DNA of 64,000 nucleotides from an uncultured Candidatus Saccharibacteria bacterium (lineage in GTDB: Bacteria; Patescibacteriota; Minisyncoccia; Phycocordibacterales; JAKAEA01), in contig CAZNZK010000005.1 of the NCBI GenBank assembly GCA_964577595.1, positions 10,885-74,884 on the forward strand, read 5' to 3'. The number at the start of each line of letters is the position of its first letter. Position 1 is the first letter of the stretch. This document shows positions 2,107-33,673 of the stretch, in pieces. The notes under the pieces were generated by a model. It had not been told where the DNA came from. It did no database searches and saw nothing but the letters and a program-made list of their open reading frames with translations. Both the position numbers and the translations under genes were made by a program.

Positions 2107-2123
2107 CTGTATACTAACACCAC

Positions 2124-2996: not shown

Positions 2997-3038
2997 TTTA
3001 GTTTTGATAAAAAGGCTAAAAAACGCTATAGTAGCGAG

Positions 3039-4145: not shown

Positions 4146-4149
4146 ATAA

Positions 4150-5298: not shown

Positions 5299-6139
5299 AA
5301 AAGACATAAAAATCGGTTTTATTGGCCAGGGTTGGATAGGCCAGCACTATGCCGATGATTTTGAAAATCGCGGCTACACGGTGGTGCGCTATGCTAAGGA
5401 GCCGCCGCACCACACAAATGCCACCGTCATTGGCCAGTGCGACATCGTGTTTATTGCCGTGCCGACGCCAACCACGCCTGCCGGCTGGGATGACAGTATT
5501 ATTCGCAGTGTTCTGCCGCTGGTGGGGAAGGGTAAAATCGCCGTCATAAAATCAACCCTTTTGCCCGGCACCACGGTAGCTCTGCAGAAAAAGTTCCCAG
5601 GCATTTTCGTCATTCATTCGCCGGAATTTTTGAGCACGCCCACGGCCGCTTTTGACGCGGCGCATCCGGCGCGCAATATCGTTGGCATTCCGCTCACCAC
5701 GCCCACGTATAAAAAGAAGGCCAAGCTCGTGCTCTCGGTGCTTTCACCCGCGCCGTACGCGCTCATCTGCCACTCCACTGAAGCGGAAATTATAAAATAT
5801 GGCCGAAATATTTTAGGCTATATGCGCGTGGTAGCCACGAATATTTTTTATGATCTAACCAAAAGCCTGAAAGCCGATTGGCGCCCGGTGGCTGAAGCCA
5901 TGAGCGCCGACGAATTCAACGGCCCGCGCTACATGAAAGTGGAGGACCAAAAGGGCCGTGGTGCTGGCGGCGTGTGCTTTATTAAGGATTTTGTCGCCTT
6001 CAAACGGCTCTATGAAAAGATCGGCAAGGACCCGATGGGCGTGGCAATGCTTTCGGCCATTGAAGCGAAAAATGTAGAGCTTCTGCGGGCCACTAAAAAA
6101 GACGCGGAATTGGTTCGCGGCGTGTATACTAAACACTAA
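5288..6139 (+). CDS. UDP-glucose/GDP-mannose dehydrogenase family core, lacking the C-terminal UDP-binding domain
   Basis: GFIGQGWIG Rossmann motif, IVFIAVPTP, KSTLLPGTT, HSPEFL...HPARNIVGI and catalytic-Cys motif GGVCFIKD all align with Ugd-type dehydrogenases. The protein ends at ~283 aa, directly after the central domain. ATG at 5288 overlaps the upstream stop. Confidence 0.6.
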   Translation: MKNKKDIKIGFIGQGWIGQHYADDFENRGYTVVRYAKEPPHHTNATVIGQCDIVFIAVPTPTTPAGWDDSIIRSVLPLVGKGKIAVIKSTLLPGTTVALQKKFPGIFVIHSPEFLSTPTAAFDAAHPARNIVGIPLTTPTYKKKAKLVLSVLSPAPYALICHSTEAEIIKYGRNILGYMRVVATNIFYDLTKSLKADWRPVAEAMSADEFNGPRYMKVEDQKGRGAGGVCFIKDFVAFKRLYEKIGKDPMGVAMLSAIEAKNVELLRATKKDAELVRGVYTKH

Positions 6140-6148
6140 TAAACTCCC

Positions 6149-7267
6149 GTGCCTCCCACAATCGTCCGCCCCAAAATGCTTGAAAAAAAGGAATTGCCCT
6201 GGATTGGCATTATTGTCGCGATTGGCCTGGCGGTTTTCCTCTGGCGCATTCACCTAGGCGCGCTTGATTATATCGGCGATTATAAAACCTACATTGCCAC
6301 CGGCCAATTTTACGCCGGCGTGCTGGGTGTGGCCCCGAGCATGCAGAGGGTTTTGAAGCCGCTTGAGCCCTTGGCCAATGCCGCTCTGGCACCGTTTTTC
6401 GGCTGGCGCGGCGGCTTTCTTATCGTGGTGGCGCTTTTCTACGTGCTTCTCACGGCCGCCACCTGGGTTTTCTTTCGGAAGGTTTTTAAAAAAATTACCT
6501 GGAGTGCCGACCCGCTTACTAATGAAGCCGTACTCCTGCCATTAACCGCGTGTGCCACCGCGCTTTTTGCTTTGAGTTACCCCATGCTTCGCTATGGCCT
6601 GGACGCCTACACTGAAACCGGCGCACTCTTCTTTTTCATGGCTGGCATGATAGAACTGTGGTGGTTTATCCGTTGGCCCAACTGGCGCCCGCTTGTGGCC
6701 ACGCTCGTCGCCTGCACTATCGGCTTTTTGTGGAAGGAATACGCAATTTTGCCGGTAATTATGATGCAAATTGCCATTTTATGGCACCCGCTTTTGAAAG
6801 GCCAGTGGAAAAAGAAAATCACCTACTTGGGCGTTTTTGACGGCATATTTTTTGCCGTAAACGTGGCCTGGCAGGCATTTGTCTATTTTCATTTTCACTA
6901 TAATTACCTGCAGTGGTATACCACCGGCGGGGCGAATAACTTCGCCGGCGGTTGGAGCATTTATATTGTTTTGAAAAGCCTTTTTGCGCTTCTCATTGCC
7001 GGTTGGCTTTTTGTGCCGTTTGGCTGGGCCGAATTGGGCCGGATGGCAAAAAATCTCCTGTTCTTTTTCTGGCTGGCGCTCTTTGTGCCGTTTATAGTGC
7101 TCGGCTGGGGTGCCGTTTCTTCGCGGCTCTTTTATGTGCTCATGCCCGCCTTCGTAACCCTCGCCGTTCTCGGCATGTGGCGCTGGCGTAAAAACCCTAA
7201 AGATATTGTCGCCATAACGATCGTTTTACTCGCCCTTGATTTTGCCTGGCTTTTTCTCCACCCATGA
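6149..7267 (+). CDS. Polytopic integral membrane protein, putative GT-C type glycosyltransferase/polymerase
   Basis: About 10 predicted TM segments and an aromatic-rich sequence; GTG at 6149 or ATG at 6176. No diagnostic motif recognised. Confidence 0.4.
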   Translation: MPPTIVRPKMLEKKELPWIGIIVAIGLAVFLWRIHLGALDYIGDYKTYIATGQFYAGVLGVAPSMQRVLKPLEPLANAALAPFFGWRGGFLIVVALFYVLLTAATWVFFRKVFKKITWSADPLTNEAVLLPLTACATALFALSYPMLRYGLDAYTETGALFFFMAGMIELWWFIRWPNWRPLVATLVACTIGFLWKEYAILPVIMMQIAILWHPLLKGQWKKKITYLGVFDGIFFAVNVAWQAFVYFHFHYNYLQWYTTGGANNFAGGWSIYIVLKSLFALLIAGWLFVPFGWAELGRMAKNLLFFFWLALFVPFIVLGWGAVSSRLFYVLMPAFVTLAVLGMWRWRKNPKDIVAITIVLLALDFAWLFLHP

Positions 7268-8280
7268 AGCTTCTCGTAATTACCCAGAAAATTGACGCTG
7301 ACGACGCGGGGCTCGGTTTTTTCTTCGGCTGGCTCAAGGCGCTGGCGGCTCAATGCGAGCAAGTGACGGCAATTTGCTTGGAACGCGGGGCGGGAAGCTT
7401 GCCCACCAATACCCGGGTTTTTTCGCTCGGCAAAGAAAGCCGGCCCAGCCGCTTTCTCTATGTGGTGAAATTTTACTGGTACATTGTGCGCGACTGGAAC
7501 AAGTACGACACCGTTTTTGTGCACATGAACGAGGAATATGTGTTGCTGGCCGGCTGGCTCTGGCGGCTTGGTGGCAAAAAGGTGACGCTCTGGCGCAACC
7601 ATGCTCGCGGCTCTTTCTTGACGCGCCTCGCGGTTTTTTTCTCCAATAAGGTTTTTTGCACATCCAAAAGCTCCTATACCGCCCGTTTTTCCAAAACCGT
7701 GCTCATGCCGGTGGGCGTGGATACTGACTTTTTCAAGCCTAACCCGGCCGTGGCAAAACCCGCCGGCTCGGTGCTTTTTCTCTCGCGCATTGCGCCAGTT
7801 AAAAAGCAGGACGTTTTTTTGCGGGCCATGGCAAAAATGCCCAGAGAACATTTTCAGGTGGATTTTTATGGCGATGCTCTGCCTAAAGACAAGCCCTATC
7901 ACGAGCTCTTGAGAGATATAGCGCGTGCGTTGAAATTGGAATCGGCAGTTTCTTTTTACTCTGGTGTGCCCAATACCCAAACGCCCACGCTCTACCATTC
8001 GCATCGGGTGTTTATCAACCTCACCCCGGCCGGCTCTTTTGATAAAACTATTGTGGAAGCGCTAGCCTGTGGCACTCTGGTGCTCACTACCAATACCGAC
8101 ATGCGCGACCAGTTGCCCGCCGCCTGCGTTGCCGACCAGGCAACTCTGCCCACCGCGCTTTCCGCGCTTTTGCATTTGTCGGAAACAGAATATGCCGAGC
8201 TCATTGGCTCATGCCAAAAATTCGTGGAGCACCATTCATTACGAAACTTAATCACGCGGTTACTAAAAGAGGTACAATAA
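7264..8280 (+). CDS. Glycosyltransferase family 4
   Basis: GT-B fold pattern with EALACGTLVLTT; ATG at 7264 overlaps the upstream stop by 4 nt. Confidence 0.7.
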   Translation: MKLLVITQKIDADDAGLGFFFGWLKALAAQCEQVTAICLERGAGSLPTNTRVFSLGKESRPSRFLYVVKFYWYIVRDWNKYDTVFVHMNEEYVLLAGWLWRLGGKKVTLWRNHARGSFLTRLAVFFSNKVFCTSKSSYTARFSKTVLMPVGVDTDFFKPNPAVAKPAGSVLFLSRIAPVKKQDVFLRAMAKMPREHFQVDFYGDALPKDKPYHELLRDIARALKLESAVSFYSGVPNTQTPTLYHSHRVFINLTPAGSFDKTIVEALACGTLVLTTNTDMRDQLPAACVADQATLPTALSALLHLSETEYAELIGSCQKFVEHHSLRNLITRLLKEVQ

Positions 8281-8285
8281 AACAT

Positions 8286-8696
8286 ATGTCCATTATTGCC
8301 CGATACATAGTTGCTGGAGTCGTTGGCGTGGCAGTAAACGTCGGCGTGCTCTACGGCCTCACGCGCTTTTTCGGCGTCTGGTATTTGGCCGCGTCTGTGG
8401 TCTCGTTTATTATTTCTTTGCTCGTTAGTTTTGCCCTGCAAAAAATGTGGACGTTTCAGGACAGGGGCATGGAGCTCGCCGGCCGGCAATTCCTCGTCTA
8501 CTTGGCCATTGCTCTTTTCAACCTCGGCCTCAATAGTCTCTGCATGTATTTCTTTACCAGTATTCTGGGAATATGGTATGTTATGTCACAACTGCTTTCT
8601 TCGGGCCTCATCGCCATTTCTAGTTTCTTTCTATATAGAGCATTTGTGTTTACTGCCGCCGCGCCCGTTCCAATGCCAACTAATCCACAATCATGA
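8286..8696 (+). CDS. GtrA-family membrane protein (glycan translocation/flippase accessory)
   Basis: MSIIARYIVAGVVGVAVNVGVLYGL...SLLVSFALQKMWTF is the typical GtrA signature; 4 TM. Confidence 0.75.
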   Translation: MSIIARYIVAGVVGVAVNVGVLYGLTRFFGVWYLAASVVSFIISLLVSFALQKMWTFQDRGMELAGRQFLVYLAIALFNLGLNSLCMYFFTSILGIWYVMSQLLSSGLIAISSFFLYRAFVFTAAAPVPMPTNPQS

Positions 8697-9310
8697 ACAA
8701 CACTCTCTGGTCACATAAAATATTTTCTCCGGGCGGTTTAACCACCAACGAAGTGCTTGGCGACGCCCTCGCTTTAGATGTGGGCTGTGGCCAGCGAAAA
8801 TTGCCTGGGGCTATCGGCCTTGATATTTTGCCCGGCTCCGAAGCCGACATCGTCCACAACCTCAACCGTTTTCCTTGGCCAGTGCCCTCGGCAAAATTTG
8901 ACCTGGTTTTAATGAGCCACGTTCTTGAGCATGTTGACGACGTGGTGGCGACGCTCAATGAAATCCACCGCATTTTGCGCCCTGGCGGCTCGCTCATAGT
9001 GCAGGTGCCGTATTTCCGCTCGGTTGACGCTTTTACCGACCCGACGCATAAACGTTTTTTCACCGCGCGCACGCTTGACTACGCCTGCCCGGCCACGAAG
9101 CTTGGCAACTTCAAATACACCGGAAAGCTCTATGAAAAAGCTGGTTTTTGGTATGATTGGCCCGGCCGGAAAATTTCTTTCATGGGCCATGTGCGCAAGC
9201 TTTTTCAGCGCTGGCCGTGGTTTTATGACCAGTATTTTTCTTTAGTGTTCCCAGCCCGGTGCTTAACATGGGAATTGCGCGTAGTCAACGATAATGAAGA
9301 GCGCTCTTAA
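8693..9310 (+). CDS. Class I SAM-dependent methyltransferase
   Basis: LDVGCGQRKL motif I and LVLMSHVLEHVDD motif; ATGA overlap with the upstream gene. Confidence 0.7.
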   Translation: MNNTLWSHKIFSPGGLTTNEVLGDALALDVGCGQRKLPGAIGLDILPGSEADIVHNLNRFPWPVPSAKFDLVLMSHVLEHVDDVVATLNEIHRILRPGGSLIVQVPYFRSVDAFTDPTHKRFFTARTLDYACPATKLGNFKYTGKLYEKAGFWYDWPGRKISFMGHVRKLFQRWPWFYDQYFSLVFPARCLTWELRVVNDNEERS

Positions 9311-10070
9311 AACGGTTGTCCTGTCGCTGTTTCGGGTTTTCAGGCCCAGCCTTTCGGCCGGGGCGATTTTAATGTATCACTCGGTGGGGGAAAATAACGC
9401 CTTTTTTTCGGTGCGGCCAGAGGAATTTGCCAGGCAAATGGCTTGGGTGGCTGAGCGGAAATTCAAGGTAGTTTTTCTTTCAGAATTGGTGGCCATGATT
9501 CGCCAGAAGAAAAATAGCGTTGCGGGCTATGTGGCTATCACTTTTGATGATGGCTATAAGGATTTTCTGCAAAATGCCGCGCCAGTTTTACGCCAGCATA
9601 ATTTTCCCGCTTCGGTTTTTTTAATTTCCGATATGCTCGGTGCTTCCTATACTACTTCTGATGGTATTTCTTTCCCGCTTATGAATGCGGCCGAAGCTCA
9701 AGAGGCGAAAGCGAGTGGCCGGGTAGAATATTTTCCTCACACCGCTAAGCACACTATTCTTGACCAAGTGTCGGCGCAAGAAGCTATACAAGAAATAGAA
9801 AAATCAAAAAACGATATCGCCGAAAAATTCGGCCGGTCCGCTAATATTCTTGCTTTTCCCAAAGGCCGGCACACGTCGGAAATTATTGAGTATTTGCGAC
9901 ATTCCAATTTCACGGCCGCCGTTACGGTGCAGGAAGGATTTGTCACTCCAGCGGGCGACCCATTTCTTCTGCCGCGCCTCTCGGTAGATTCCAGCACCAG
10001 CTTCGCGCAATTCAAAGCCAAGCTTTCCGACGGGTACGGTGCCTATCTTTCTTTGCGTAAGTATCTATGA
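9294..10070 (+). CDS. Polysaccharide deacetylase (CE4/NodB homology)
   Basis: ITFDDGYKDF motif and downstream His-containing motifs. Confidence 0.65.
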   Translation: MKSALKTVVLSLFRVFRPSLSAGAILMYHSVGENNAFFSVRPEEFARQMAWVAERKFKVVFLSELVAMIRQKKNSVAGYVAITFDDGYKDFLQNAAPVLRQHNFPASVFLISDMLGASYTTSDGISFPLMNAAEAQEAKASGRVEYFPHTAKHTILDQVSAQEAIQEIEKSKNDIAEKFGRSANILAFPKGRHTSEIIEYLRHSNFTAAVTVQEGFVTPAGDPFLLPRLSVDSSTSFAQFKAKLSDGYGAYLSLRKYL

Positions 10071-11131
10071 AAAAGGGAATTCGTTTTTGTTTTTTTGGTA
10101 TCTATACTCCCGGCTATGCCCGCAATCGGGTTTTTCTCAAGGGTTTGCGGCAAAATGGCGTGAGTGTGGTAGAAATTCGCCTGGATGCCGGCACACGCTG
10201 GCGCTATTTCAAATTGGCCTGGCGGCTTTTTAAAATGCGTCGCTCCTATGACGTGATAGTAGCGGCATTCCCGTCGCCAACAGCGGCTATCGTCGCCCGG
10301 CTCGTTTCCCGGAAGTTTCTTGTTGTTGACGAGTTTTATTCTATGTATGACGCGGTGGTTAATGATAGGAAGGAAATCAGTCGCTGGCACCCGCGGGCTC
10401 TGAAATTGCTAGTGCTCGATTGGCTCAGCTTGCTTTGCGCTGATTTGATTATCACCGACACTGCCGAGCATAAAAAATACTGGGCACTCTGGCTGTGGGC
10501 CAATAGTAAAAAGATGGAAGTGGTGCACATTGGTGCCGAAATTCCTAAGCTCGCCGCTAACCAGCCAAGCTCCGAAGATGGCCGGCTCGTTGTCCATTTT
10601 CACGGTTCCTACGTGCCTCTACAGGGCGTTGAGGCCATTGTCGCGGCCGCGGCGTTGCTTAAAAATGACAATCGATTCGCGTTTCGGCTTATAGGCGATG
10701 GTCAAGATTTTGAGCGGGCTATGGTTATTGCGGAAACGGCCGGCATCAAAAAAGAACTTGAAATTATTCGGCGGATAGATTATGGCACGTTGCTCAACTA
10801 TATTTCCGCGGCTGATATTGTCCTCGGCATTTTCGGCACATCGGAAAAAGCTAAGCGGGTTATTCCCAATAAAGTCTATGAAGGCGCGGCGGCAGGGAAG
10901 CCAATAGTAACCATGGACAGCCGGGCTATTCGCGAAGTTTTTTCGCCCAGCAAAGACATTCTCGTAACAGAACCAACACCCGAAGCTTTGGCCGAGGCCT
11001 TGAAACGCTTGGTTGGCGACCCGCAGTTCCGTCACGCTCTTGGCGCTGCCGCTTTGGCCACCGCTAAAAAATATAGCCCGCAGTGCGTTGCAGAAAAATT
11101 GTATACAATAGTAGAACAAAAAATAAAATGA
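10067..11131 (+). CDS. Glycosyltransferase family 4/1
   Basis: GT-B C-domain (VYEGAAAGKPIVTMDSRAIREVF); ATGA overlap. Confidence 0.65.
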   Translation: MKKGIRFCFFGIYTPGYARNRVFLKGLRQNGVSVVEIRLDAGTRWRYFKLAWRLFKMRRSYDVIVAAFPSPTAAIVARLVSRKFLVVDEFYSMYDAVVNDRKEISRWHPRALKLLVLDWLSLLCADLIITDTAEHKKYWALWLWANSKKMEVVHIGAEIPKLAANQPSSEDGRLVVHFHGSYVPLQGVEAIVAAAALLKNDNRFAFRLIGDGQDFERAMVIAETAGIKKELEIIRRIDYGTLLNYISAADIVLGIFGTSEKAKRVIPNKVYEGAAAGKPIVTMDSRAIREVFSPSKDILVTEPTPEALAEALKRLVGDPQFRHALGAAALATAKKYSPQCVAEKLYTIVEQKIK

Positions 11132-11775
11132 GCGATTTTCTTCGCGACATATACGCCGGCCGCACCGTGTACCGTTTTCTTTTTGATAGGGCTACCAAGC
11201 CACTCCTCAGCGCGCTTACTGGGGAAGTGCTTGATTTGGGTGGCAATCGCCGTTCGCCCTATTACCGTTTTTTCTCGCCGCAGGCGAACGTTACCGCCTC
11301 CAATTATCTTCCTAAAGATGGCGTAGATGTCGTCGTTGATCTTTCTAAAAAATTTCCATTGGCCAGCGAAACCTATGGTGCTGTGCTTTGTTTTAATATG
11401 CTCTATATATTAGCCGATAGGCATACGGCTCTAGTTGAAATGCGGCGTGTCCTAAAACCCGGTGGCCAGCTCATTCTTTCCATGCCATTCATCGCCAATG
11501 AAATGCCTGAGCCCACCGACTATTGCCGGCTCACCGCAGATGGTCTCAAAATAGAGTTAGAACAGGCTGGTTTTTCCGACATAAAAATCACCCGTTTCGG
11601 CGAGCGCTTTACTTCGGCCGCATACTTGCTTCATCCGCTCTATGTTTTCAACACGGTTCGACTTGTTGCTTACGCCGCGGCCTTGTTTTTGGACAAACTC
11701 CTACCAAAATCAATAAAGCGCAATCACCCTACGCCGCTTGGGTATATTGCCGTGGCGAAAAAATCCGCGCTATAG
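11128..11775 (+). CDS. Class I SAM-dependent methyltransferase
   Basis: VLDLGGN motif I and VLKPGGQLILSMPF; ATG at 11128 overlaps the upstream TGA as ATGA. Confidence 0.65.
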   Translation: MSDFLRDIYAGRTVYRFLFDRATKPLLSALTGEVLDLGGNRRSPYYRFFSPQANVTASNYLPKDGVDVVVDLSKKFPLASETYGAVLCFNMLYILADRHTALVEMRRVLKPGGQLILSMPFIANEMPEPTDYCRLTADGLKIELEQAGFSDIKITRFGERFTSAAYLLHPLYVFNTVRLVAYAAALFLDKLLPKSIKRNHPTPLGYIAVAKKSAL

Positions 11776-11884
11776 ACATTTTACTGTATTTGTTGTAGTC
11801 TTGTGATAGATATTCGCGAATAGTTCGTGAGCCCTCTATCGTGGAAAAACGGTATTTTTCGTCCTTTTCCAAAGGAGAATCGCC

Positions 11885-12850
11885 ATGAAAGCGATTGGTT
11901 TGTTTCTTGGTGCGTTGCTTGGTTGTCTAGTTTTGACCGCTTCAGCCAATGCTGCCGCTTATAGCATCACGGATTTAGGCACGCTGGGCGGTTCGTTCAG
12001 CATTGGCAATAACATGAACAGCACTGGTCAAGTTGTTGGTTCATCCATTAATTCTACTGGTGTTGAACACGCTTTCCGGTACTCTGGTGGTTCCATGATC
12101 GACCTGGGAACGCTCGGTGGTACTTACAGCACCGCCCACGGTGTCAATGTTAATGGACAAGTTGTGGGCTTCTCCGCTATTTCTGGTGGTCCTGGTGGTA
12201 CGCAACACGCCTTTCTGTATTCCGGTGGCTCTATGGCAGATCTTGGAACGCTCGGCGGCACCCAAAGCTATGCCAATGGCGTCAATAATGCCGAGCAAGT
12301 AGTTGGTCGCGCTCAAATTGCGAACGGCCTCTACCATCCATTTCTGTACGCGAACGGCTCCATAACTGATTTGGGCACGCTCGGCGGCACTTCCGCAAGT
12401 GCCCAGAGCATCAGTGACGTCGGACAGATCGTCGGCGGTTCGTACACCTCCGGAGGTGTTTACCACGCGTTTCTCTATACAGGTAGCACGATGAGCGATC
12501 TTGGCACGCTCGGCGGCATTTTTGCAAACAGTCAGGCCGACAGTGTGAACAATATCGGTCAGATTGTTGGCGAATCTTACTCCGCCGACGGTAGCATCGT
12601 CCACGCTTTCTTGTATGCCGACGGTTCGATGAAAGATTTGAACGGTCTTGTTGATCCGAGTTCGGGCTGGATGCTTGAGTACGCAAAAGCCGTTAACGAT
12701 GGCGGTCAAATTGCCGGTTATGGTATTAGTCCGTCTGGTACAGCTCATGCGTTCTTGCTCAATCCTGTTCCGGAGCCGACAACGCTCCTGGTTCTCGGGC
12801 TCGGCTCGCTTCTCGTTCTCAGGCGGCGAGGTTCATCAGTCTCAAATTGA
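11885..12850 (+). CDS. Secreted HAF-repeat protein with C-terminal PEP-CTERM sorting signal
   Basis: Signal peptide, then six repeats of ~44 aa (DLGTLGG...QVVG...HAFLY), then VPEPTTLLVLGLGSLLVLRRR (PEP motif, TM helix, Arg cluster). AAGGAG RBS 7 nt upstream of the ATG. Confidence 0.85.
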   Translation: MKAIGLFLGALLGCLVLTASANAAAYSITDLGTLGGSFSIGNNMNSTGQVVGSSINSTGVEHAFRYSGGSMIDLGTLGGTYSTAHGVNVNGQVVGFSAISGGPGGTQHAFLYSGGSMADLGTLGGTQSYANGVNNAEQVVGRAQIANGLYHPFLYANGSITDLGTLGGTSASAQSISDVGQIVGGSYTSGGVYHAFLYTGSTMSDLGTLGGIFANSQADSVNNIGQIVGESYSADGSIVHAFLYADGSMKDLNGLVDPSSGWMLEYAKAVNDGGQIAGYGISPSGTAHAFLLNPVPEPTTLLVLGLGSLLVLRRRGSSVSN

Positions 12851-12856
12851 ACAACA

Positions 12857-12884
12857 GCCGGTGGCAACCCCACCGGCTTTTTTC
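12857..12884 (+). terminator. Rho-independent terminator after the HAF/PEP-CTERM gene
   Basis: gccggtgg-caacc-ccaccggc hairpin followed by TTTTTT. Confidence 0.7.
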
Positions 12885-12946
12885 TTGTAATGATGTCATT
12901 TTTCGAGTAATATTGAAGTACTTTATTATTAGCGATTCTCACTTTT

Positions 12947-13828
12947 ATGGCTGACATTACTACTCTTGAGACGCCGTATGGCACGTTTGCTGTTGACCCT
13001 GCGCGAGACATGAAGGTATTGCGCCAAATGCAAGAATATGGTCACCATCAGTTATTTTCCATCAATCTCCTGAAATTGTTTGCCGATAGTAATTCTGTGG
13101 CGATGGACGTTGGCGCACACATAGGTACGTTTTCAATACCGTTGGCGCGCTGGTTTAAGAAGGTGATTGCTTTCGAGCCGTCACCAGAGACGCATGCTCT
13201 TCTTGTAAAAAATATCGCCCTAAACCGGCTCACCAATGTCGCCTCGCCGCAAAAAGGTCTCGGTTCTGTCGCTGGTCATGCCAGCCTAGGCACGATTTTT
13301 AGTGGCAATGCTGGTGGGCAGGCCTTACGGATAGGGGAAGGCTCTATAACTGTCTCTACGCTTGATACTGAATATCAGGAAAAAGAGCCGTTGTGTTTGA
13401 TGAAAATAGATGTTGAAGGAATGGAACTCGACGTATTTAAGGGTGGCGTAAAAACAATCGAATCGTCACGACCAGTGATTTTATTTGAAATAAATCTTCG
13501 CGAAATGAAAGCCCATAATAATTCGCCGAAAGCTATTGCCGTTTTTTTTGCTTCTCGAAATTATAAGATTTTTTATCCTTTTGAACGCTCCGGAAAAGTA
13601 TGTTTCGGGAAGATACCAAGTTTGTCTTTAGTTTTGAGTGTTGTTACGCCCCGTTCATTTTTCTTTAATGGGCCATCAATGCCTTTTGATGTGTTGGCCA
13701 TTCCACGCGAGCGGGCTGTACCCGCGCAAACGAAGGTTGTTTCGCGAACAGCACTCGTACTCTATCTTTTCCAGCTTAATATTTCCAATAAGATTCAGCG
13801 ATTTTTGTGTTTATTTAAAAAACCATAA
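12947..13828 (+). CDS. FkbM-family methyltransferase
   Basis: AMDVGAHIGTFSIPLARWF motif; second FkbM paralog in the cluster. Confidence 0.65.
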   Translation: MADITTLETPYGTFAVDPARDMKVLRQMQEYGHHQLFSINLLKLFADSNSVAMDVGAHIGTFSIPLARWFKKVIAFEPSPETHALLVKNIALNRLTNVASPQKGLGSVAGHASLGTIFSGNAGGQALRIGEGSITVSTLDTEYQEKEPLCLMKIDVEGMELDVFKGGVKTIESSRPVILFEINLREMKAHNNSPKAIAVFFASRNYKIFYPFERSGKVCFGKIPSLSLVLSVVTPRSFFFNGPSMPFDVLAIPRERAVPAQTKVVSRTALVLYLFQLNISNKIQRFLCLFKKP

Positions 13829-13833
13829 ATTTA

Positions 13834-14892
13834 ATGGTCAGCGCTTCTTCTCAGAAGAAAACCCTTAAGCCCATTCTGTGGATGTCCTTCGGGCCGATAG
13901 GCGACACGATGATGATGGTGGCCTTTTTTGACGACATTCTGCGCGTGCGGCCGGACGCCACTTTTACCGTGCTCACCAGCCGCAATGCGGCCGTGATTCG
14001 CGACCTGTGCCGGGCATACCCCTCCATAACGGTAGTAGAAATTCCTTCGCGTCTCGCAGCCGTGCCAGCGTTTCTGTTCAATATTTTCCGCAAGCGCTGG
14101 ATAGTACTCATGCCGGGCGTGGCGCACTATTATTCCACCCAGCTGAAAATTTTCTTTTTAGTGCTCTATTGTTTTCCGTGGATAACTTCCATCGGCTTCG
14201 GCGATATCCGGAAGCGCTTTGGCTGGCTGCCATTTCATACGGTTCTGCATTTTGATTTGTCGCGCACGGTGCTTCAAAATTATCGCCGGATGGCTCCTTA
14301 CTTTTTAGGCACGCCGATTCCACCCGAGCAGCTGCTTACGGCGAAGCTCGCCTTAAAAGCGCCCGCGAATTTTTCTCTCAAGAAGGGCGCTTATGTGGTT
14401 ATTCATATGTTTGGCAATAAGCGGCGGCTTTCGTTTCCCGACAGACGCTGGCGCGCGCTTACTATAGAATTAACGAAGCGCTACCCCAATTACCAGTTTG
14501 TATTTACCGGCGCGCCCAAGGACGCGCCCGCCATGGAGATAATCACCAAAGATATTCCGCGCACCACAATGCTCGTTGATTTGCCGATTTTGGAAGTCGC
14601 CTCCATTATTGATTCGGCCGCGCTTTATATTGGCGTGGATACGGGCATTACCCATTTGGCCGGCGTGATGAAAAAGAAAAGCGTGCTGGTGGAGAATAAT
14701 TCCAACCCGCTCTGGTGGCCTTCCTATAATCCCAATGCCACTATTTTGGTTAACAACAAGCGCTGTATTTGCAAAGGCGACAAAACCGACCAGTGTCGCG
14801 TGCTTGATGAAGACGGCACAAATTATTATCGTTGCACCTACGACATTACCGACCAGGCGGTTTTAGACGCCGTAGCCGCCGTTCTGAAATAA
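13834..14892 (+). CDS. Glycosyltransferase family 9 (heptosyltransferase-like)
   Basis: C-terminal VDTGITHLAGVM motif matches the GT9 DSGxxHxAAA signature. Confidence 0.6.
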   Translation: MVSASSQKKTLKPILWMSFGPIGDTMMMVAFFDDILRVRPDATFTVLTSRNAAVIRDLCRAYPSITVVEIPSRLAAVPAFLFNIFRKRWIVLMPGVAHYYSTQLKIFFLVLYCFPWITSIGFGDIRKRFGWLPFHTVLHFDLSRTVLQNYRRMAPYFLGTPIPPEQLLTAKLALKAPANFSLKKGAYVVIHMFGNKRRLSFPDRRWRALTIELTKRYPNYQFVFTGAPKDAPAMEIITKDIPRTTMLVDLPILEVASIIDSAALYIGVDTGITHLAGVMKKKSVLVENNSNPLWWPSYNPNATILVNNKRCICKGDKTDQCRVLDEDGTNYYRCTYDITDQAVLDAVAAVLK

Positions 14893-14910
14893 AATTTCAT
14901 ACAAAATTCC

Positions 14911-16023
14911 ATGCGCCTTATTTATTTAACCGGTCTCAACTATCCTTCAGCAATTGCTAATAACCAGCAGGTGATGGTGATGGCTGGGGAATTTCATACA
15001 ATTCTCGGTACTGGCGATTTTACGTTGATAGTGAACGCTTCGCGAACAGCGGGGGAATTTGCTGGTTTTCAGCCGGTGACTATTGGTTGCGGTTGGAAAC
15101 ACTTTCGTTTGTTCTACAGTGCCTGGTGGTTTTTCCGGCATGCAAAAGCACTTGTTAATGGCCGCCCCGATGTGGTGGTTTATACCAAAGATCCATATTT
15201 TTGCCTCATCAGTATTTTCTTCAAAAAAATCTTCGGCTACAAAGTAGTGTTTGAATCACACCTTTTATTTTCGCCGATGGTTGATTGGTTCATTGCTCGC
15301 TATGCCGACGCGATTCTCGTGCTGACCTCGCATTTGAAAACTGATCTAGTGGCGAAGGGTGCCTCGGCGCAGAAAATCGCCGTTGTTCCCGACGCTGTTG
15401 ATGTGGCAAAATTCAACCTCAATATTTCTGTTGCCGAAGCTCGGCAGAAATTACACCTGCCACTTGATAAAAAACTCGTCATGTATAGCGGAAGCCTCTA
15501 TGTGCATGAATGGAAAGGCGTGCCGGTGCTGTGCGAAGCCGTCCAGCTTCTACCGCCGGAATACTTAGTAGTGCTTCTGGGCGCTCGCAATGAGGCCGAG
15601 AAAAAACGGGCCGAAGAAGCCGGGAAGGGTAGGGTGCTGGTGGTGGAGCGAAAGACGCACACTGAAATTCCGCTCTATTTACAGGCCGCCGATGCACTCG
15701 TTTTGCCCAACACTCGCGGTAATGCCAATTCGGAAAAGTACACCTCGCCGCTGAAACTTTTTGAATATATGGCCGCCCGCCGGCCCATCGTCGCTTCCGA
15801 CTTACCTTCCATTCGCGAAGTGCTTTCTGAAAAGAATAGTTTTTTGGCCGAGCCTGGCTCAGCGCCGAGCCTGGCAAAAGCAATCGTTGCGGCCACAAAT
15901 AATTCTGGCACCGATTCTGGCCGTATTGTTGACCAGGCCTGGAACGATGTGAAAGACAAAACCTGGCATGCTCGCGCCGAAGACATCCTGGCTTTTATGC
16001 GCACAGCGATTACAATGAAATAA
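14911..16023 (+). CDS. Glycosyltransferase family 4
   Basis: GT-B C-domain LFEYMAARRPIVASDLPSIREVL. Confidence 0.7.
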   Translation: MRLIYLTGLNYPSAIANNQQVMVMAGEFHTILGTGDFTLIVNASRTAGEFAGFQPVTIGCGWKHFRLFYSAWWFFRHAKALVNGRPDVVVYTKDPYFCLISIFFKKIFGYKVVFESHLLFSPMVDWFIARYADAILVLTSHLKTDLVAKGASAQKIAVVPDAVDVAKFNLNISVAEARQKLHLPLDKKLVMYSGSLYVHEWKGVPVLCEAVQLLPPEYLVVLLGARNEAEKKRAEEAGKGRVLVVERKTHTEIPLYLQAADALVLPNTRGNANSEKYTSPLKLFEYMAARRPIVASDLPSIREVLSEKNSFLAEPGSAPSLAKAIVAATNNSGTDSGRIVDQAWNDVKDKTWHARAEDILAFMRTAITMK

Positions 16024-16033
16024 CAGTAAAACA

Positions 16034-16663
16034 ATGGCAAAAATTAGAGATTTCCTGACCGGCAAATTAACCCGCATCCCTTTGGACGCTTTCGTAAAGC
16101 GGCATGCTTCCGACGCCTACACTCTGGATGTCGGCTGTTCGCATTCGCCCTATTCGCAGTTTTTCAAAAACCGCGTCGGCTTTGACATCGCCCCCGGCCC
16201 AGGCGTTGATGTGGTTGGCGACGCCCATGCTATGCCTTTTGCCGCCAACACTTTTGACCTCATTGTGGCTACAGAAGTATTGGAGCACCTCCACTCGCCC
16301 TGGCTGGCCGTTGCCGAAATGCACCGCGTCCTCAAAAAAGGTGGCCATCTCCTCCTCACCACTCGCTTTTTTCAAGTTATCCACGATGCGCCGCACGATT
16401 ATTATCGCTACACCGAATACGGCTTGCGCTACTTGCTGGCCGATTTCAATATTGTTGAGCTTGATGAAGAATTTCCGCCCAAAAATACCATTGCCATGCT
16501 CATCCAACGCGCTGGTCTCAATAAAAATCTTCGGGGTGGCATTCTCGCTCGCGGCTTTTTCCTGGTATTGGCCCGATGTGTCTATGCTCTACCGACATTT
16601 TCTCGCCGCAAAACCGGTCATGCTTTCACTTCCGGCTACTACGTCTTCGCCGCCAAAAAATAG
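16034..16663 (+). CDS. Class I SAM-dependent methyltransferase
   Basis: LDVGCSHSPYS motif I and ATEVLEHLHSP. Confidence 0.7.
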   Translation: MAKIRDFLTGKLTRIPLDAFVKRHASDAYTLDVGCSHSPYSQFFKNRVGFDIAPGPGVDVVGDAHAMPFAANTFDLIVATEVLEHLHSPWLAVAEMHRVLKKGGHLLLTTRFFQVIHDAPHDYYRYTEYGLRYLLADFNIVELDEEFPPKNTIAMLIQRAGLNKNLRGGILARGFFLVLARCVYALPTFSRRKTGHAFTSGYYVFAAKK

Positions 16664-16684
16664 GCGAAATACCGAAAGGCAACC

Positions 16685-17863
16685 ATGTTCAAAAAAACCA
16701 GAGATACGATTAAAAATTACAGCCTGCTTGCTCTCTGTTTTTGCTACGCCCTTGTTCGCGGTTCCGCCAAAAAGCTCGGCACGGAAGTCAACAATATTCT
16801 CATCGTCCACGACGCTAAAATGGGGGATATGGTTTGCCTTACGCCCACCATTCGCGCCGCAAAGCAGGCCCGCCCGCAAGCGCGGGTGTTTGTGTACGGG
16901 AACGCTATTGGCCGGGCTATTCTCGCCGGGAACCAGGCGGTCGGCGGCTATATAGAGAGTAACCAGAACATGTTTGCGCTCATTAAAAGTTTTCGCCAAA
17001 ACAACATTGACTACGTCGCCATCGCCGCGCCCGACTTTCGCGCCGCCGCCATTGCTTTTTTAGCCGGCATCAAAACCATTTGTTGTTCCAACGTTGAAGG
17101 CGGTTTTTCTCCCTGGGAAACCGCGGCCTATGGCTTGCTCAAAAAACTGACGTTCCAGTATCCTCTGCGTATGAATTTTTACGCTCCCGCCGAATATCTC
17201 GGGGCTCTCGCGCCCTTGGGGAGCACTACAAATGCCGCGGGTATTACTAGTGCCGCAAGCTTCACCGACACGCGCAAAGAGCTCTACTATTCCCCGCAAG
17301 CCGCCGAGCGTATTAAGCAGTTTTTCGCCGAGCACCACCTTACTCCGAAAAAAGATTTCATTGTCGCTATTTCTCCCTCGGCAGGCAATAAAATAAAGAA
17401 TTGGCCGGGCGAGCGCTTTGCCGAAGTGGCCGCCTATGCCCATAAAAAGCACAATGCAAAAATCATCATCATCGGTAGCCGCGTAGACGGGCCTGAAGTT
17501 GAGGGAATGCTCCGCCACATGGCTCCGGGCGTGCCCCTTATAAACACCCTCAACCTCTTTTCAATTGACGAGCTCAAAGCTTTTCTTTCGCAAGTAAGCC
17601 TCTTGGTGGCCGTGGACACTGGGCCCATTTACATTGCCGAAGCTTTTGGTGTGCCGACCATTGATATCATTGGCCCCGTCAGTGAGAAGGAACAGCCGCC
17701 CATTTCCGCCATCCACAAAATTGTTTTTCTGCGCGACAGAAAAGCGCCTGCTGTGCATATCATGAACGCCCGCATCTACGACTCCGCCGAAGCCCGCCGC
17801 CAAGTTGAGGGGATTACTGTGGCGATGGTTGAGGAGGTTTTGGAGGAGGTGGTGGGGAAGTAG
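16685..17863 (+). CDS. Glycosyltransferase family 9 (heptosyltransferase-like), second copy
   Basis: VDTGPIYIAEAFGVPTIDIIGP GT9 signature. Confidence 0.6.
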   Translation: MFKKTRDTIKNYSLLALCFCYALVRGSAKKLGTEVNNILIVHDAKMGDMVCLTPTIRAAKQARPQARVFVYGNAIGRAILAGNQAVGGYIESNQNMFALIKSFRQNNIDYVAIAAPDFRAAAIAFLAGIKTICCSNVEGGFSPWETAAYGLLKKLTFQYPLRMNFYAPAEYLGALAPLGSTTNAAGITSAASFTDTRKELYYSPQAAERIKQFFAEHHLTPKKDFIVAISPSAGNKIKNWPGERFAEVAAYAHKKHNAKIIIIGSRVDGPEVEGMLRHMAPGVPLINTLNLFSIDELKAFLSQVSLLVAVDTGPIYIAEAFGVPTIDIIGPVSEKEQPPISAIHKIVFLRDRKAPAVHIMNARIYDSAEARRQVEGITVAMVEEVLEEVVGK

Positions 17864-17947: not shown

Positions 17948-19609
17948 ATGCCTGATCAAAACCTGCTCAACTACATTAAAACCGCGCTCGCGCAAGGTAA
18001 GAGTCGCCAGGAAATTACGGCCACGCTTATGGCTCAAGGCGGTTGGACCCAGGCGGATATAGATGCTGTTTTTGCGACCTTGCCGCCAGTGCCGCCGTCA
18101 GCCCCAACGAATCCACAGGTTCCGTCATTCAAGCCGCAAGGAAGTGTGCCGCCGCTTTCGCCAATGAACGTATATACGGTTCCTGGTGCTGGTCAAAACT
18201 ATCGGCCGCAAAATTCTGGCTCGCACTGGCTTCTCGGCTTGATTACTTTAGCTGTCGCCTTGGTGGGTACGTATTTTAGTTGGTACGTATTGATCGGTAA
18301 TTCAACTGTGGCGTTATGGATTGCTGGTAGCATGGATGCTATTCTGCTTTTTGAAATTTTGTTTATTTGGATTATTGCCGCGCTTTTTCGGGTTCCCAAT
18401 AACTCATTTTCCAAGCCCTTACTGATTGGTGGTGTTCTTGGGGTGATGTATATTCCTGTGCTTTTCCTGTATTACAACGTTCCTGTTTTCTCTAGTATAG
18501 CGGGCGTTGTTGAATTTATCATCTATATCGTACTCTTGGTTAAGATATATGGGATTTCCATTGGCAAAAGTATTGGTATTGCTGTTGTTGCCGGTATTCC
18601 TACTATGATTGTTGCTGGGGTTATCGTCATGGCTTTGTTGTTTAAAGGACTCTTTTCTCTTGTTACGGTTGCTGAAAACTATAACGCGCAAAATGCGCAG
18701 ATACAAAATTCTTCGGCATCAAGCGTTATGATTGATTCAGATTCGCTTACTACCTCATCCGCGTTCCCGACAATTACCGGTATGACCGCTAATTTATCAT
18801 CAGTAAGCGTTGATGTGGATGGTTTTGTTCCAGCAAAGGGTGGTACTGTCGCCCTTTATGATGGCACGGTTCCTGTCGTAAATGGTGCGTGGTCTTTCAC
18901 AGTATCAGCATCAAATGCCGCCTTCGGCGGACCCCAAGGACTTGCGCCGGGGAACTATACTGTTGTTGTTGGAGCAACAGAAGCGGCGGCGCTTGCTAGT
19001 AGCACCCTCACTGTTTCAAACGGTTCGCAAATGCCGGCTACTAGTGTTGCGGGTATGCAGCAATACTCCGTGCCAGCGTGGCCGTTTACTATTTCCTATC
19101 CATCCGATTTTGCGCCTACCGATACCCTAACTACCGCGCAACAAAATTCAGTTGCTTCATATATGGGAACATGTTCTGTGGGGCCTGCCGGTCATTCTAA
19201 TGATGTTGCTCAAGTTCAGCTTTGCTACATTGGCACGCAAAAACCCGATGGCTTTGCGTCTGCAGGCGTAAATATTATGCCAAACCATGCTATAAGCGCG
19301 CAGGATTGCCAGAAACCGGAAGACAGCGGTAATACTTCATCATTGGCTTCACAAACAGCTACCATTAATGGCGCTACATTTTACGAAAACACATTCAGCG
19401 ACGCGGCCCTCGGCCACTATCTGTCAATCGATTCGTACCGGACATACCAAGGCGGCACGTGCTATACGGTAGACTTAAAATTTGAAACTGACCGAGGCAC
19501 ATCTGAAAAAGGGCTTAATGACCCTAGTTTTGCCGCGACAATGCAGGCGAAGTTGAAAGCAATTCTCTCTACGATTACATTTTCGCAGAATTCTGCAACT
19601 ATAAATTAA
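17948..19609 (+). CDS. Hypothetical membrane/surface protein with extracellular Ig-like region
   Basis: Soluble N-domain, a cluster of TM helices, then a Ser/Thr/Ala-rich extracellular region with a beta-rich segment. Confidence 0.5.
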   Translation: MPDQNLLNYIKTALAQGKSRQEITATLMAQGGWTQADIDAVFATLPPVPPSAPTNPQVPSFKPQGSVPPLSPMNVYTVPGAGQNYRPQNSGSHWLLGLITLAVALVGTYFSWYVLIGNSTVALWIAGSMDAILLFEILFIWIIAALFRVPNNSFSKPLLIGGVLGVMYIPVLFLYYNVPVFSSIAGVVEFIIYIVLLVKIYGISIGKSIGIAVVAGIPTMIVAGVIVMALLFKGLFSLVTVAENYNAQNAQIQNSSASSVMIDSDSLTTSSAFPTITGMTANLSSVSVDVDGFVPAKGGTVALYDGTVPVVNGAWSFTVSASNAAFGGPQGLAPGNYTVVVGATEAAALASSTLTVSNGSQMPATSVAGMQQYSVPAWPFTISYPSDFAPTDTLTTAQQNSVASYMGTCSVGPAGHSNDVAQVQLCYIGTQKPDGFASAGVNIMPNHAISAQDCQKPEDSGNTSSLASQTATINGATFYENTFSDAALGHYLSIDSYRTYQGGTCYTVDLKFETDRGTSEKGLNDPSFAATMQAKLKAILSTITFSQNSATIN

Positions 19610-19631
19610 ATCAGTATTATATTTCACCCTC

Positions 19632-20462: not shown

Positions 20463-20502
20463 AGAACGTTACTGCTTCACTTACAAATTAATTAGAAATC
20501 CC

Positions 20503-21222: not shown

Positions 21223-21225
21223 CCG

Positions 21226-21263
21226 CGTTACTGCAACGCACCCAGTGCCGCGATGGTTTGTGG
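21226..21263 (-). pseudogene. Relic 3' end of a PG-binding/amidase-like gene
   Basis: The reverse complement encodes ...PQTIAALGALQ*. It is 33/38 nt identical to the real 3' end of the amidase gene at 24427-24464, and the differences fall at wobble positions. Only ~19 codons remain open. Confidence 0.55.
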
Positions 21264-21269
21264 TATAAT
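21261..21269 (+). promoter_or_regulatory. Extended -10 element (TGgTATAAT), 8 nt upstream of ATG (leaderless-type)
   Basis: TGGTATAAT, then 8 nt, then the ATG at 21278. Confidence 0.45.
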
Positions 21270-21277
21270 TTTAAGCA

Positions 21278-22579: not shown

Positions 22580-22626
22580 AAAATCAATCTATTCACATAA
22601 GTCTCGCTATCCGTTAATTACTGACT

Positions 22627-23967: not shown

Positions 23968-23973
23968 TAAAAT

Positions 23974-31032: not shown

Positions 31033-31121
31033 GCTTGCAGAATTAAGGGTTTTTAGCTGAAGCTGTTGTGGGTAAGTCATATGTTGTTTTTTGTTATCAG
31101 TAGTTGTATAGTCGACTATGA

Positions 31122-33659: not shown

Positions 33660-33673
33660 AGAAAAAGCATATC

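What the first reader, a model, noticed from the sequence alone, without database searches (positions are those of the whole stretch)
11885..12850. HAF-repeat PEP-CTERM protein embedded inside the glycosyltransferase/methyltransferase operon
The only non-enzymatic gene in the 18-kb glycan operon is a secreted protein carrying six ~44-aa HAF repeats and a canonical PEP-CTERM tail. It has its own strong RBS and terminator.

PEP-CTERM proteins are processed by exosortase and are proposed in the literature to be linked to exopolysaccharide biology. This placement suggests the protein is a substrate, for example for glycosylation, or a scaffold of the polymer made by the flanking enzymes. No exosortase gene lies in the window.
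Basis: partly seen in the sequence, partly recalled or inferred. Interest (0 to 1): 0.6.

Follow-up and report, generated by a model that had tools for sequence, protein, structure and literature searches.

The report
Borrowed surface propeller protein in CPR
The gene is a real but ordinary member of a huge family of exported beta-propeller ("HAF repeat") proteins with a PEP-CTERM sorting tail; the one unusual point is its host, an ultra-small Patescibacteria (CPR) bacterium, a group thought to lack the outer membrane that all known PEP-CTERM users have.

Summary
Window 11885..12850 (+) encodes a 321-aa protein with a signal peptide, six HAF repeats (TIGR02913, E=9e-73) and a PEP-CTERM tail above both curated cut-offs. 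It has an AAGGAG ribosome-binding site and a 9-bp-stem terminator.

The architecture is common. At least 7,962 homologues exist, and about half of the top 120 end in the same "HAFLLTPVPEP...RRR" tail. An AlphaFold model (pLDDT 91.9) shows a six-bladed beta-propeller.

The new points come from context:
- **Host:** a Patescibacteria/Paceibacteria bacterium (RNase J, synteny and flanking enzymes all point there).
- **Surrounding cluster:** the glycan genes are CPR-native. A homologous cluster in a relative lacks the HAF gene, and the nearest HAF homologues (57% identity or less) that carry an organism name are non-CPR. The gene is therefore most likely an acquired, separately transcribed accessory gene, not a core part of the pathway.
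- **Exosortase:** none was found in about 95 kb of this genome.
- **Other PEP-type tails:** a second tail (60029..61057) is appended to a domain otherwise seen untailed. A homologous tailed protein sits in another CPR genome.

The glycosylation/scaffold idea rests on co-location only. Whether an exosortase exists elsewhere in the genome is unresolved.

The parts
11872..11877 (+). Ribosome-binding site AAGGAG, 7 nt upstream of the ATG
   Evidence: Read from the sequence
11885..12850 (+). Coding sequence of the HAF-repeat PEP-CTERM protein (321 aa plus stop)
   Evidence: ORF list. The same protein is encoded in independent assemblies. GC content and codon usage are typical of the window.
11885..11953 (+). 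Signal peptide, residues 1-23 (MKAIGLFLGALLGCLVLTASANA); cleavage after ANA is inferred
   Evidence: Read from the sequence. The AlphaFold model has a helix at residues 2-19, separate from the propeller. No signal-peptide predictor was available.
11960..12763 (+). Six HAF repeats (residues 26-293), each about 43-46 aa and each forming one propeller blade. The DLGTLGG-coding phase recurs at 11965, 12094, 12232, 12361 and 12490. The sixth copy is degenerate (DLNGLVD, about 12635).
   Evidence: TIGR02913 six stretches, E=9e-73. Direct-repeat families with 129/138-nt spacing. AlphaFold pLDDT 91.9, all-beta. Foldseek best matches are beta-propellers.
12764..12847 (+). PEP-CTERM sorting domain, residues 294-321: VPEP (12767-12778), hydrophobic helix TTLLVLGLGSLLVL (12779-12820), RRR (12821-12829), then GSSVSN
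   Evidence: PF07589 22.3 bits against 20.7. TIGR02595 18.6 bits against 16. Helix at residues 298-316 in the model.
12856..12884 (+). Intrinsic terminator: 9-bp stem (7 G-C pairs), 5-nt loop, T-run
   Evidence: I3
48..11775 (+). Upstream block of the surface-glycan cluster: GT4 x5, GH18, FkbM methyltransferase, UDP-glucose dehydrogenase, family-less multi-pass membrane protein, GtrA, two class-I methyltransferases, polysaccharide deacetylase. This is context, not part of the gene.
   Evidence: Pfam
12947..17863 (+). Downstream block of the glycan cluster: FkbM methyltransferase, GT9, GT4, class-I methyltransferase, GT9. This is context.
   Evidence: Pfam. Named homologues of the FkbM enzyme are all Patescibacteria. 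The relative's cluster keeps FkbM-GT9 without an HAF gene.
60029..61057 (+). Second protein with a PEP-CTERM-like tail (TPEPASLGILGAFALCLLRRRR), 342 aa. It is probably a substrate of the same sorting route, if one exists.
   Evidence: PF07589 16.6 bits and TIGR02595 14.8 bits, both below cut-off. The tail is appended to a domain whose 20-odd longer relatives end without it. Absent from the syntenic loci L003/L004.

Best explanation
The gene encodes an exported binding module. A Sec signal peptide is removed. Six HAF repeats fold into a six-bladed beta-propeller outside the cytoplasmic membrane. A PEP-CTERM tail (VPEP, a 14-residue helix, RRR) holds the protein in the membrane.

The host is a Patescibacteria (CPR, class Paceibacteria) bacterium. 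The gene is a separately transcribed accessory gene lodged between two blocks of a CPR-native surface-glycan cluster. It was most likely acquired long ago from a non-CPR bacterium, because its composition is now host-like.

My preferred mechanism is that the tail is a working sorting signal. An exosortase-family enzyme encoded elsewhere in the genome would cut at the PEP motif and pass the propeller to a surface acceptor. This would be analogous to sortase in Gram-positive bacteria and archaeosortase in archaea, leaving an adhesin- or lectin-like propeller on the cell surface.

**Shown:** the ORF, its domains, the fold, the host lineage, the separate transcription signals, and the absence of the gene from a relative's cluster.

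**Inferred:** signal-peptide cleavage, acquisition by transfer, binding function, and every processing step.

Confidence is about 0.85 that this is an exported, membrane-anchored accessory beta-propeller surface protein. It is about 0.5 for the exosortase-dependent step; 0.5 is the value given.
For: **Domains.**

**Fold.** AlphaFold pLDDT 91.9, pTM 0.86. The best solved-structure matches are propellers: acylaminoacyl-peptidase propeller, Photorhabdus PHL/PLL lectins, PknD sensor domain and TolB, TM 0.45-0.52.

**Family and architecture are common.**
- 7,962 of 8,000 scored candidates have E<1e-5.
- 50 of 120 top hits pass a strict PEP-tail pattern, with the same HAFLLTPVPEP junction.
- Plasmid homologues are annotated 'PEP-CTERM sorting domain-containing protein'.

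**Host.**
- RNase J is 83% and 79% identical to unnamed MAGs and 66-70% to Paceibacterota, Taylorbacteria and Parcubacteria MAGs.
- Synteny with L003/L004.
- An unlinked 16S rRNA gene lies about 15 kb to the left.
- The locus was recovered in at least four independent assemblies.

**Accessory status.**
- Terminator and intergenic gaps.
- The relative's cluster lacks the gene.
- Named homologues of the flanking FkbM enzyme are all Patescibacteria, while the named HAF homologues are Geobacter and Anaerolineales.
- GC and codon usage are unremarkable.

**Signs that the tail is used.**
- A second PEP-type tail is appended to a domain whose other members end about 8 residues after 'TQTWGLDNFKT'.
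- A homologue (P0142) is 40% identical over about 165 aa. From the PEP motif onward its tail matches 15 of 21 positions by my own hand count on the printed sequences. It lies in a different CPR contig next to a 23S rRNA with a group I intron.
Against: **No exosortase was found.**
- Pfam and NCBIfam gave no hit in the window.
- The precomputed Pfam lists for the flanks showed none.
- The same holds for 22 kb of a 500-kb contig, probably from the same genome, and for the 20-kb L114 locus.
- No ORF carried the three invariant EpsH motifs C-x-G, N-x-x-R and H-x-x-x-G. I scanned 325 multi-pass ORFs in 1.6 Mb of fetched loci and the loci fetched later.

**Known distribution argues against it.**
- PEP-CTERM and exosortase are reported only in bacteria with an outer membrane (PMC1569441; bioRxiv 10.1101/2023.06.07.544157).
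- CPR bacteria are thought to lack one (bioRxiv 10.1101/2025.01.22.634366).
- 80 RNase J neighbourhoods of other Paceibacteria (1.3 Mb) hold no PEP-type tail.

**Function is untested.** No HAF-repeat protein has a tested function; only one paper in the library even uses the term.
Confidence: 0.5

Rival explanations
1. Anchor only. The genome has no exosortase. The PEP-CTERM tail came along with a transferred gene and now acts simply as a C-terminal membrane helix with an RRR stop-transfer. In a bacterium without an outer membrane this alone displays the propeller on the surface.
For: - No exosortase in about 95 kb of the genome, nor in the related CPR loci seen.
- The published PEP-CTERM range excludes monoderms (PMC1569441).
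- Other Paceibacteria loci carry no such tails.
- In a monoderm, a helix plus a basic cluster is enough for surface display (inference).
Against: - The HAF tail still scores above both curated PEP-CTERM cut-offs, although the protein is no more than 57% identical to any homologue and its composition is host-like.
- A PEP-type tail was added to a domain family otherwise seen without it (P0123-P0147). It is better conserved than the body between two CPR genomes. This is not expected for a mere hydrophobic anchor.
Confidence: 0.35
2. The protein is functionally tied to the flanking enzymes, either as a substrate they glycosylate or as a scaffold or attachment point for the polymer they make.
For: - Co-location on the same strand.
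- Exosortase genes are often found in exopolysaccharide loci (PMC1569441).
- The window holds machinery that could in principle glycosylate proteins outside the membrane: two weak PMT_2-like membrane proteins, GtrA, and a Wzy_C/O-antigen-ligase-family protein with TPR repeats.
- The propeller fold resembles sugar-binding lectins, some of which bind O-methylated sugars. This is at generic fold level only, 11-12% identity.
Against: - The gene has its own terminator and the two largest intergenic gaps between genes 1-19 of the cluster (48..17863).
- A homologous glycan cluster in a relative lacks any HAF gene.
- There is no Ser/Thr-rich linker.
- HAF-PEP-CTERM genes elsewhere sit in unrelated contexts; for example, the Eleftheria copy lies between a di-haem oxidoreductase gene and an NAD(P)H oxidoreductase gene.
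Confidence: 0.12
3. Artefact. The contig is chimeric or misassigned, and the gene really belongs to a Gram-negative bacterium in the same sample.
For: The HAF homologues that carry an organism name are non-CPR.
Against: - The same gene order was recovered in independent assemblies from ENA (two samples), Logan and JGI.
- Both flanks are CPR-type genes.
- GC, GC3 and codon usage match the window.
Confidence: 0.03

Closest known systems
HAF repeat proteins with a PEP-CTERM tail (TIGR02913 plus TIGR02595; Pfam DUF3466/PF11949 is the related Vibrio-type model)
   Same: - Signal peptide, tandem repeats of about 43 aa with DLGTLGG and HAF motifs, and the same 'HAFLL(T/N)PVPEP' junction into the tail.
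- Annotated in this form in Skermanella and Eleftheria replicons.
   Different: - The host is a Patescibacteria bacterium, not a diderm.
- Identity to any database member is 57% or less.
- Six repeats here and seven in an allele from another sample.
PEP-CTERM/exosortase (EpsH, XrtA) sorting system of Gram-negative bacteria (Haft 2006, PMC1569441)
   Same: - Three-part C-terminal signal, an N-terminal signal peptide, location among polysaccharide genes, and more than one tailed protein in the genome.
   Different: - No exosortase gene was seen.
- The host lineage is thought to lack a periplasm and outer membrane, which every described PEP-CTERM species has.
- The sigma-54 enhancer type upstream motif of Proteobacteria was not looked for.
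LPXTG/sortase (monoderm bacteria) and PGF-CTERM/archaeosortase A (archaea)
   Same: - Same signal logic (motif, helix, basic cluster) in cells without an outer membrane.
- The product ends up covalently held at the surface. These are the best functional analogies if the tail is processed here.
   Different: - The motif is PEP, not LPXTG or PGF.
- No sortase or archaeosortase gene was seen in the region examined.
Extracellular beta-propeller binding domains (Photorhabdus PHL/PLL lectins, PknD NHL sensor domain, TolB, fungal AAL lectin)
   Same: - All-beta propeller of six or seven blades, one repeat per blade; Foldseek E of about 1e-5, TM 0.45-0.52.
   Different: - Sequence identity is 10-18%, so there is no evidence of shared ligand sites.
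- The resemblance is at the level of the general fold only.

Membership tests
HAF repeat family (TIGR02913) | Tandem repeats of about 40 aa that match the curated model above its cut-off | tested here: met
   Six stretches, 240 bits against 22.65, E=9e-73. DNA periodicity of 129/138 nt.
HAF repeat family (TIGR02913) | Extracellular location (N-terminal signal peptide) | tested here: met
   Residues 1-23 have the form of a classic Sec signal, with A-N-A before the cut. This was read from the sequence; no predictor was available.
PEP-CTERM sorting domain (TIGR02595 / PF07589) | Curated model score above cut-off, at the extreme C-terminus | tested here: met
   PF07589 22.3 bits against 20.7, residues 294-315 of 321. 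TIGR02595 18.6 bits against 16.
PEP-CTERM sorting domain (TIGR02595 / PF07589) | Three-part layout: P-E-P motif abutting a hydrophobic helix, then a basic cluster | tested here: met
   VPEP(295-298), TTLLVLGLGSLLVL, RRR(313-315). Helix at residues 298-316 in the model.
PEP-CTERM sorting domain (TIGR02595 / PF07589) | Several tailed proteins per genome (median 8 in Haft 2006) | tested here: inconclusive
   Two were found in about 95 kb. The second (60029..61057) is below the cut-offs at 16.6 and 14.8 bits.
PEP-CTERM/exosortase system | An EpsH/exosortase-family gene in the same genome (strict co-occurrence, PMC1569441) | tested here: inconclusive
   - None in the window.
- None in the flanks out to about -20 kb and +8 kb.
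- No ORF with the C-x-G ... N-x-x-R ... H-x-x-x-G motifs.
- Most of the genome remains unseen.
PEP-CTERM/exosortase system | Host with inner membrane, periplasm and outer membrane (PMC1569441) | tested here: not met
   The host places in Patescibacteria/Paceibacteria. CPR bacteria are proposed to lack an outer membrane (bioRxiv 10.1101/2025.01.22.634366). The envelope of this organism itself was not observed.
PEP-CTERM/exosortase system | Host carries exopolysaccharide or surface-glycan synthesis genes | tested here: met
   More than 20 glycan genes in the window, including a Wzm/Wzt ABC exporter and a Wzy_C-family protein.
Beta-propeller lectins (PHL/PLL, AAL) | Conserved sugar-binding residues between blades | not tested
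   Only overall fold similarity was measured. Identity is 11-12%.

The most novel reading that the evidence does not exclude
A working PEP-CTERM/exosortase-type sorting route exists in some Patescibacteria, a lineage without an outer membrane. It would attach acquired and native surface proteins (this HAF propeller, the 60029..61057 protein, and P0142 in a second genome) to a cell-surface acceptor, possibly the glycan or lipid made by clusters like the one around this gene. That would break the rule that PEP-CTERM is confined to diderm bacteria. It would also give CPR episymbionts a previously unnoticed way to decorate their surface.
Probability: 0.4. Interest if true: 0.65.

Novelty: new member of a known kind. 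Interest (0 to 1): 0.4.

Why it matters
**The protein itself.** It adds nothing new. HAF-repeat PEP-CTERM proteins are annotated by the thousand.

**The host.** Every published description restricts PEP-CTERM/exosortase to bacteria with an outer membrane. This window shows curated-threshold PEP-CTERM signals in a CPR bacterium. A PEP-type tail has also been grafted onto a domain otherwise seen untailed, and it is conserved in a second CPR genome.

If a cognate enzyme is found, the system's range extends to monoderm ultra-small bacteria. These live attached to other cells and depend on their surface proteins.

If no enzyme is found, this is a clean natural case of a sorting signal reduced to a plain membrane anchor after transfer.

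Either answer needs only one hmmsearch on the full genome bin.

Tried and rejected
**Looking for an exosortase**
- Pfam on 58 window ORFs and NCBIfam on ten ORFs (the family-less ones plus two with only weak Pfam matches): no exosortase.
- I walked outward with exact-protein look-ups until all 12 were used. This reached about -20 kb and +8 kb, 22 kb of a 500-kb contig from the same samples, and one CPR relative. No exosortase was seen.
- A 'CSG' motif recalled from memory gave nothing. I replaced it with the published EpsH motifs, which also gave nothing.
- I tried to obtain an exosortase seed from annotated plasmids carrying HAF genes. None lay near the gene. I then dropped the idea, because a seed would only re-test loci already covered, and the large search lists only the top 120 hits.

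**Looking for orthologues and context**
- The genome-contig scan went on RNase J for taxonomy, so no genome-wide exosortase survey of Patescibacteria was possible.
- The metagenome scan with the HAF protein found only 13 short loci at 58% identity or less, with no orthologue.

**Other checks**
- Recent transfer was rejected: GC 52.8%, GC3 51.9%, codon distance average.
- Tandem Repeats Finder sees no array, because the repeats are too diverged at the DNA level.
- No insertion scars or flanking direct repeats surround the gene.
- A lipoprotein reading of 'LLGC' at residues 11-14 was considered. It is unlikely, because the hydrophobic core continues past the Cys to an A-N-A site.
- A literature search for PEP-CTERM or exosortase together with Patescibacteria/CPR found nothing relevant.

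Full report

Yes. Window 11885..12850 (+) is an ATG-initiated ORF of 321 codons.

- **N-terminus.** MKAIGLFLGALLGCLVLTASANA has the form of a Sec signal peptide.
- **HAF repeats.** NCBIfam TIGR02913 matches six stretches (E=9e-73, 240 bits against a cut-off of 22.65).
- **PEP-CTERM tail.** The C-terminus passes both curated models: PF07589 at 22.3 bits against 20.7 and TIGR02595 at 18.6 against 16. The tail reads VPEP, TTLLVLGLGSLLVL, RRR.
- **DNA repeats.** They recur with spacings of 129 and 138 nt at 64-85% identity. They are old, diverged repeats, which is why Tandem Repeats Finder reports nothing.
- **Signals.** AAGGAG lies 7 nt before the start codon. A 9-bp, 7-GC hairpin followed by TTTTTT lies 6 nt after the stop codon.

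**2. What surrounds it?**

- **48..17863 (+ strand):** seven GT4 and two GT9 glycosyltransferases, two FkbM and three class-I methyltransferases, a UDP-glucose dehydrogenase, a polysaccharide deacetylase, a GH18 protein, a GtrA-like protein and a family-less multi-pass membrane protein.
- **Further along:** six family-less secreted or membrane proteins (17948..24315). Then an ACPS/FkbH/MaoC/MBOAT set, a Wzm/Wzt ABC exporter, a Wzy_C-family protein with TPR repeats, MurB, a two-component system, ribonucleotide reductase and RNase J.

The HAF gene is bounded by gaps of 109 nt and 96 nt, the two largest between genes 1-19 of the cluster (48..17863), and it has its own terminator. It is therefore a separate transcription unit between two blocks, not an internal operon gene. 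No ORF matches an exosortase model.

**3. Whose genome is this?**

RNase J (62035..63894) finds only Patescibacteria in one-genome-per-species GTDB contigs.

- 83% and 79% identity to two unnamed MAGs.
- 66-70% identity to MAGs named Candidatus Paceibacterota, Taylorbacteria and Parcubacteria.

Other evidence agrees.

- The two closest loci are syntenic with window genes 46-55.
- Named homologues of the FkbM enzyme just downstream of the HAF gene are all Patescibacteria (Paceibacterota, Kaiserbacteria).
- An unlinked 16S rRNA gene lies about 15 kb left of the window (L113:5621-7197). From my own knowledge, unlinked rRNA genes are common in CPR.
- The same gene order appears in independent assemblies from two ENA samples, a Logan run and a JGI metagenome. 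The HAF gene's GC, GC3 and codon usage are average for the window. A chimera is therefore very unlikely.

**4. What is the protein?**

It belongs to a very large family.

- 7,962 of the 8,000 scored candidates have E<1e-5, with best identity 57%.
- By a strict pattern, 50 of the top 120 end in a PEP-type tail, usually with the same junction 'HAFLLTPVPEP'.
- Homologues on Skermanella and Eleftheria replicons are annotated 'PEP-CTERM sorting domain-containing protein'.

The architecture is routine.

An AlphaFold model built on 46 sequences is confident (pLDDT 91.9, pTM 0.86) and all-beta between the two terminal helices. Its best solved-structure matches are beta-propellers: acylaminoacyl-peptidase propeller, Photorhabdus PHL/PLL lectins, the PknD sensor domain, TolB and AAL, with TM 0.45-0.52 and 10-18% identity. 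One HAF repeat is therefore one blade of a six-bladed propeller. This fold typically binds ligands; it does not usually catalyse reactions. No tested function for HAF repeats was found in the literature.

**5. Is it tied to the glycan pathway?**

Probably not tightly.

- A homologous cluster in a more distant Paceibacteria relative (L117/L118) shares window genes 1, 4, 5, 8, 9, 15, 16, 30, 32, 38 and 39 at 35-62% identity. There the FkbM-GT9 pair is directly preceded by membrane proteins, and tblastn finds no HAF gene.
- The HAF homologues that carry an organism name are non-CPR (Geobacter, Anaerolineales).
- Elsewhere, HAF-PEP-CTERM genes sit in unrelated neighbourhoods.

The simplest reading is an old acquisition that landed at a junction in a CPR-native cluster. 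The glycosylation or scaffold idea rests on co-location alone. Two points keep it alive at low probability. The window does hold membrane proteins of the PMT_2 and Wzy_C kinds. Some propeller lectins bind methylated sugars.

**6. The exosortase question**

Haft et al. found PEP-CTERM only in bacteria with an outer membrane, in strict co-occurrence with EpsH (PMC1569441; restated in bioRxiv 10.1101/2023.06.07.544157). CPR bacteria are thought to lack an outer membrane (bioRxiv 10.1101/2025.01.22.634366). No paper in the library links exosortase or PEP-CTERM to Patescibacteria.

I found no exosortase in any of the following:
- the window;
- the flanks out to about -20 kb and +8 kb;
- 22 kb of a 500-kb contig from the same three samples, whose tetranucleotide correlation with the window is 0.92;
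- a scan for the three invariant EpsH motifs in 325 multi-pass ORFs across 1.6 Mb of fetched loci.

Eighty RNase J neighbourhoods of other Paceibacteria carry no PEP-type tail. Most of this genome remains unseen, so the test is inconclusive.

**7. Evidence that the tail is nevertheless in use**

The window holds a second PEP-type tail at 60029..61057 (TPEPASLGILGAFALCLLRRRR). It scores below the curated cut-offs.

- An exhaustive phmmer search finds 29 proteins with E of 0.001 or less, the query itself included.
- The body of the protein is the C-terminal domain of secreted proteins of about 600-690 aa. These end about 8 residues after a conserved 'TQTWGLDNFKT' motif and have no tail.
- The closest of these (P0123, 53% identity) carries a peptidoglycan-binding domain and lies on the 500-kb contig from the same samples. 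In the window protein a PEP-type tail was therefore added to a domain otherwise seen untailed.
- A shorter homologue (P0142, 40% identity over about 165 aa) keeps the tail. From the PEP motif onward it matches 15 of 21 positions by my hand count on the printed sequences.
- P0142 lies in a different sample, on a contig syntenic with that 500-kb contig. It sits next to a 5S gene and a 23S rRNA with a group I intron. From my own knowledge, such introns are frequent in CPR rRNA.

A tail that is better conserved than the body across two CPR genomes suggests a recognised signal, not a mere anchor. This keeps the odds of a cognate enzyme near even.

**8. Verdict**

- **Observation:** confirmed.
- **Interpretation:** partly supported. 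The protein is a PEP-CTERM protein among glycan genes, but there is no evidence of a substrate or scaffold role, and the gene is an accessory insertion.
- **The protein:** a new member of a known kind.
- **The interesting residue:** the host lineage. Settling the matter needs a single hmmsearch on the full genome bin.

Noticed in passing
window 60029..61057 (+) and 61224..61949 (+): A second protein with a PEP-CTERM-like tail, followed by a family-less 241-aa soluble protein. Both are missing from the otherwise syntenic loci L003/L004, between the MFS and RNase J genes. The tail is appended to a domain that in about 20 longer relatives ends without one.
   Followed up: yes
L091:1810-2904 (ENA ERZ27245386), corresponding to window 11885..12850: An allele of the HAF gene has exactly one extra in-register repeat (43 aa; 364 aa and seven blades) and is otherwise 100% identical. 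This is either real repeat-number variation between co-occurring strains or repeat collapse during assembly.
   Followed up: partly
window 17948..24315 (+): Six consecutive secreted or membrane proteins have no Pfam or NCBIfam family. Their GC (39-47%) is lower than that of the flanking glycan genes (about 50%). Two of them (21278..22579 and 22627..23967) share a 'TTNTTSTA(G/A)W.TYT..QYGFS' segment. This may be a surface-protein island.
   Followed up: no
window 44342..48980: A Wzm/Wzt-type ABC exporter (- strand) sits next to an 826-aa Wzy_C (O-antigen-ligase family) protein with TPR repeats. The Wzy_C protein is 66% conserved in the closest relatives. Its acceptor in a bacterium without lipopolysaccharide is unknown; it could be a wall polymer or a protein.
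   Followed up: no
window 52037..55880 (+): The ribonucleotide reductase large and small subunit genes are absent from the syntenic position in L003/L004. Their best matches are in other Paceibacteria loci (L062, L078). This suggests local gene insertion or shuffling.
   Followed up: no
window 30679..41213, and L117:8890-13480: A module of ACPS, a small carrier-like protein, FkbH, MaoC dehydratase and MBOAT is conserved with the relative's glycan cluster at 52-62% identity. This suggests that the glycan or a lipid anchor is acylated.
   Followed up: no
L113:5621-7197; L114:10639-14446: An unlinked 16S rRNA gene lies about 15 kb left of the window in a strain variant. In a related CPR contig a 23S rRNA carries a group I intron (L114:11168-11418) next to the PEP-CTERM gene P0142.
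   Followed up: partly
window 62035..64000 (-), continuing beyond the window end: RNase J is called as 709 aa in the source contigs. It therefore has an N-terminal extension of about 90-150 residues that runs off the window.
   Followed up: no
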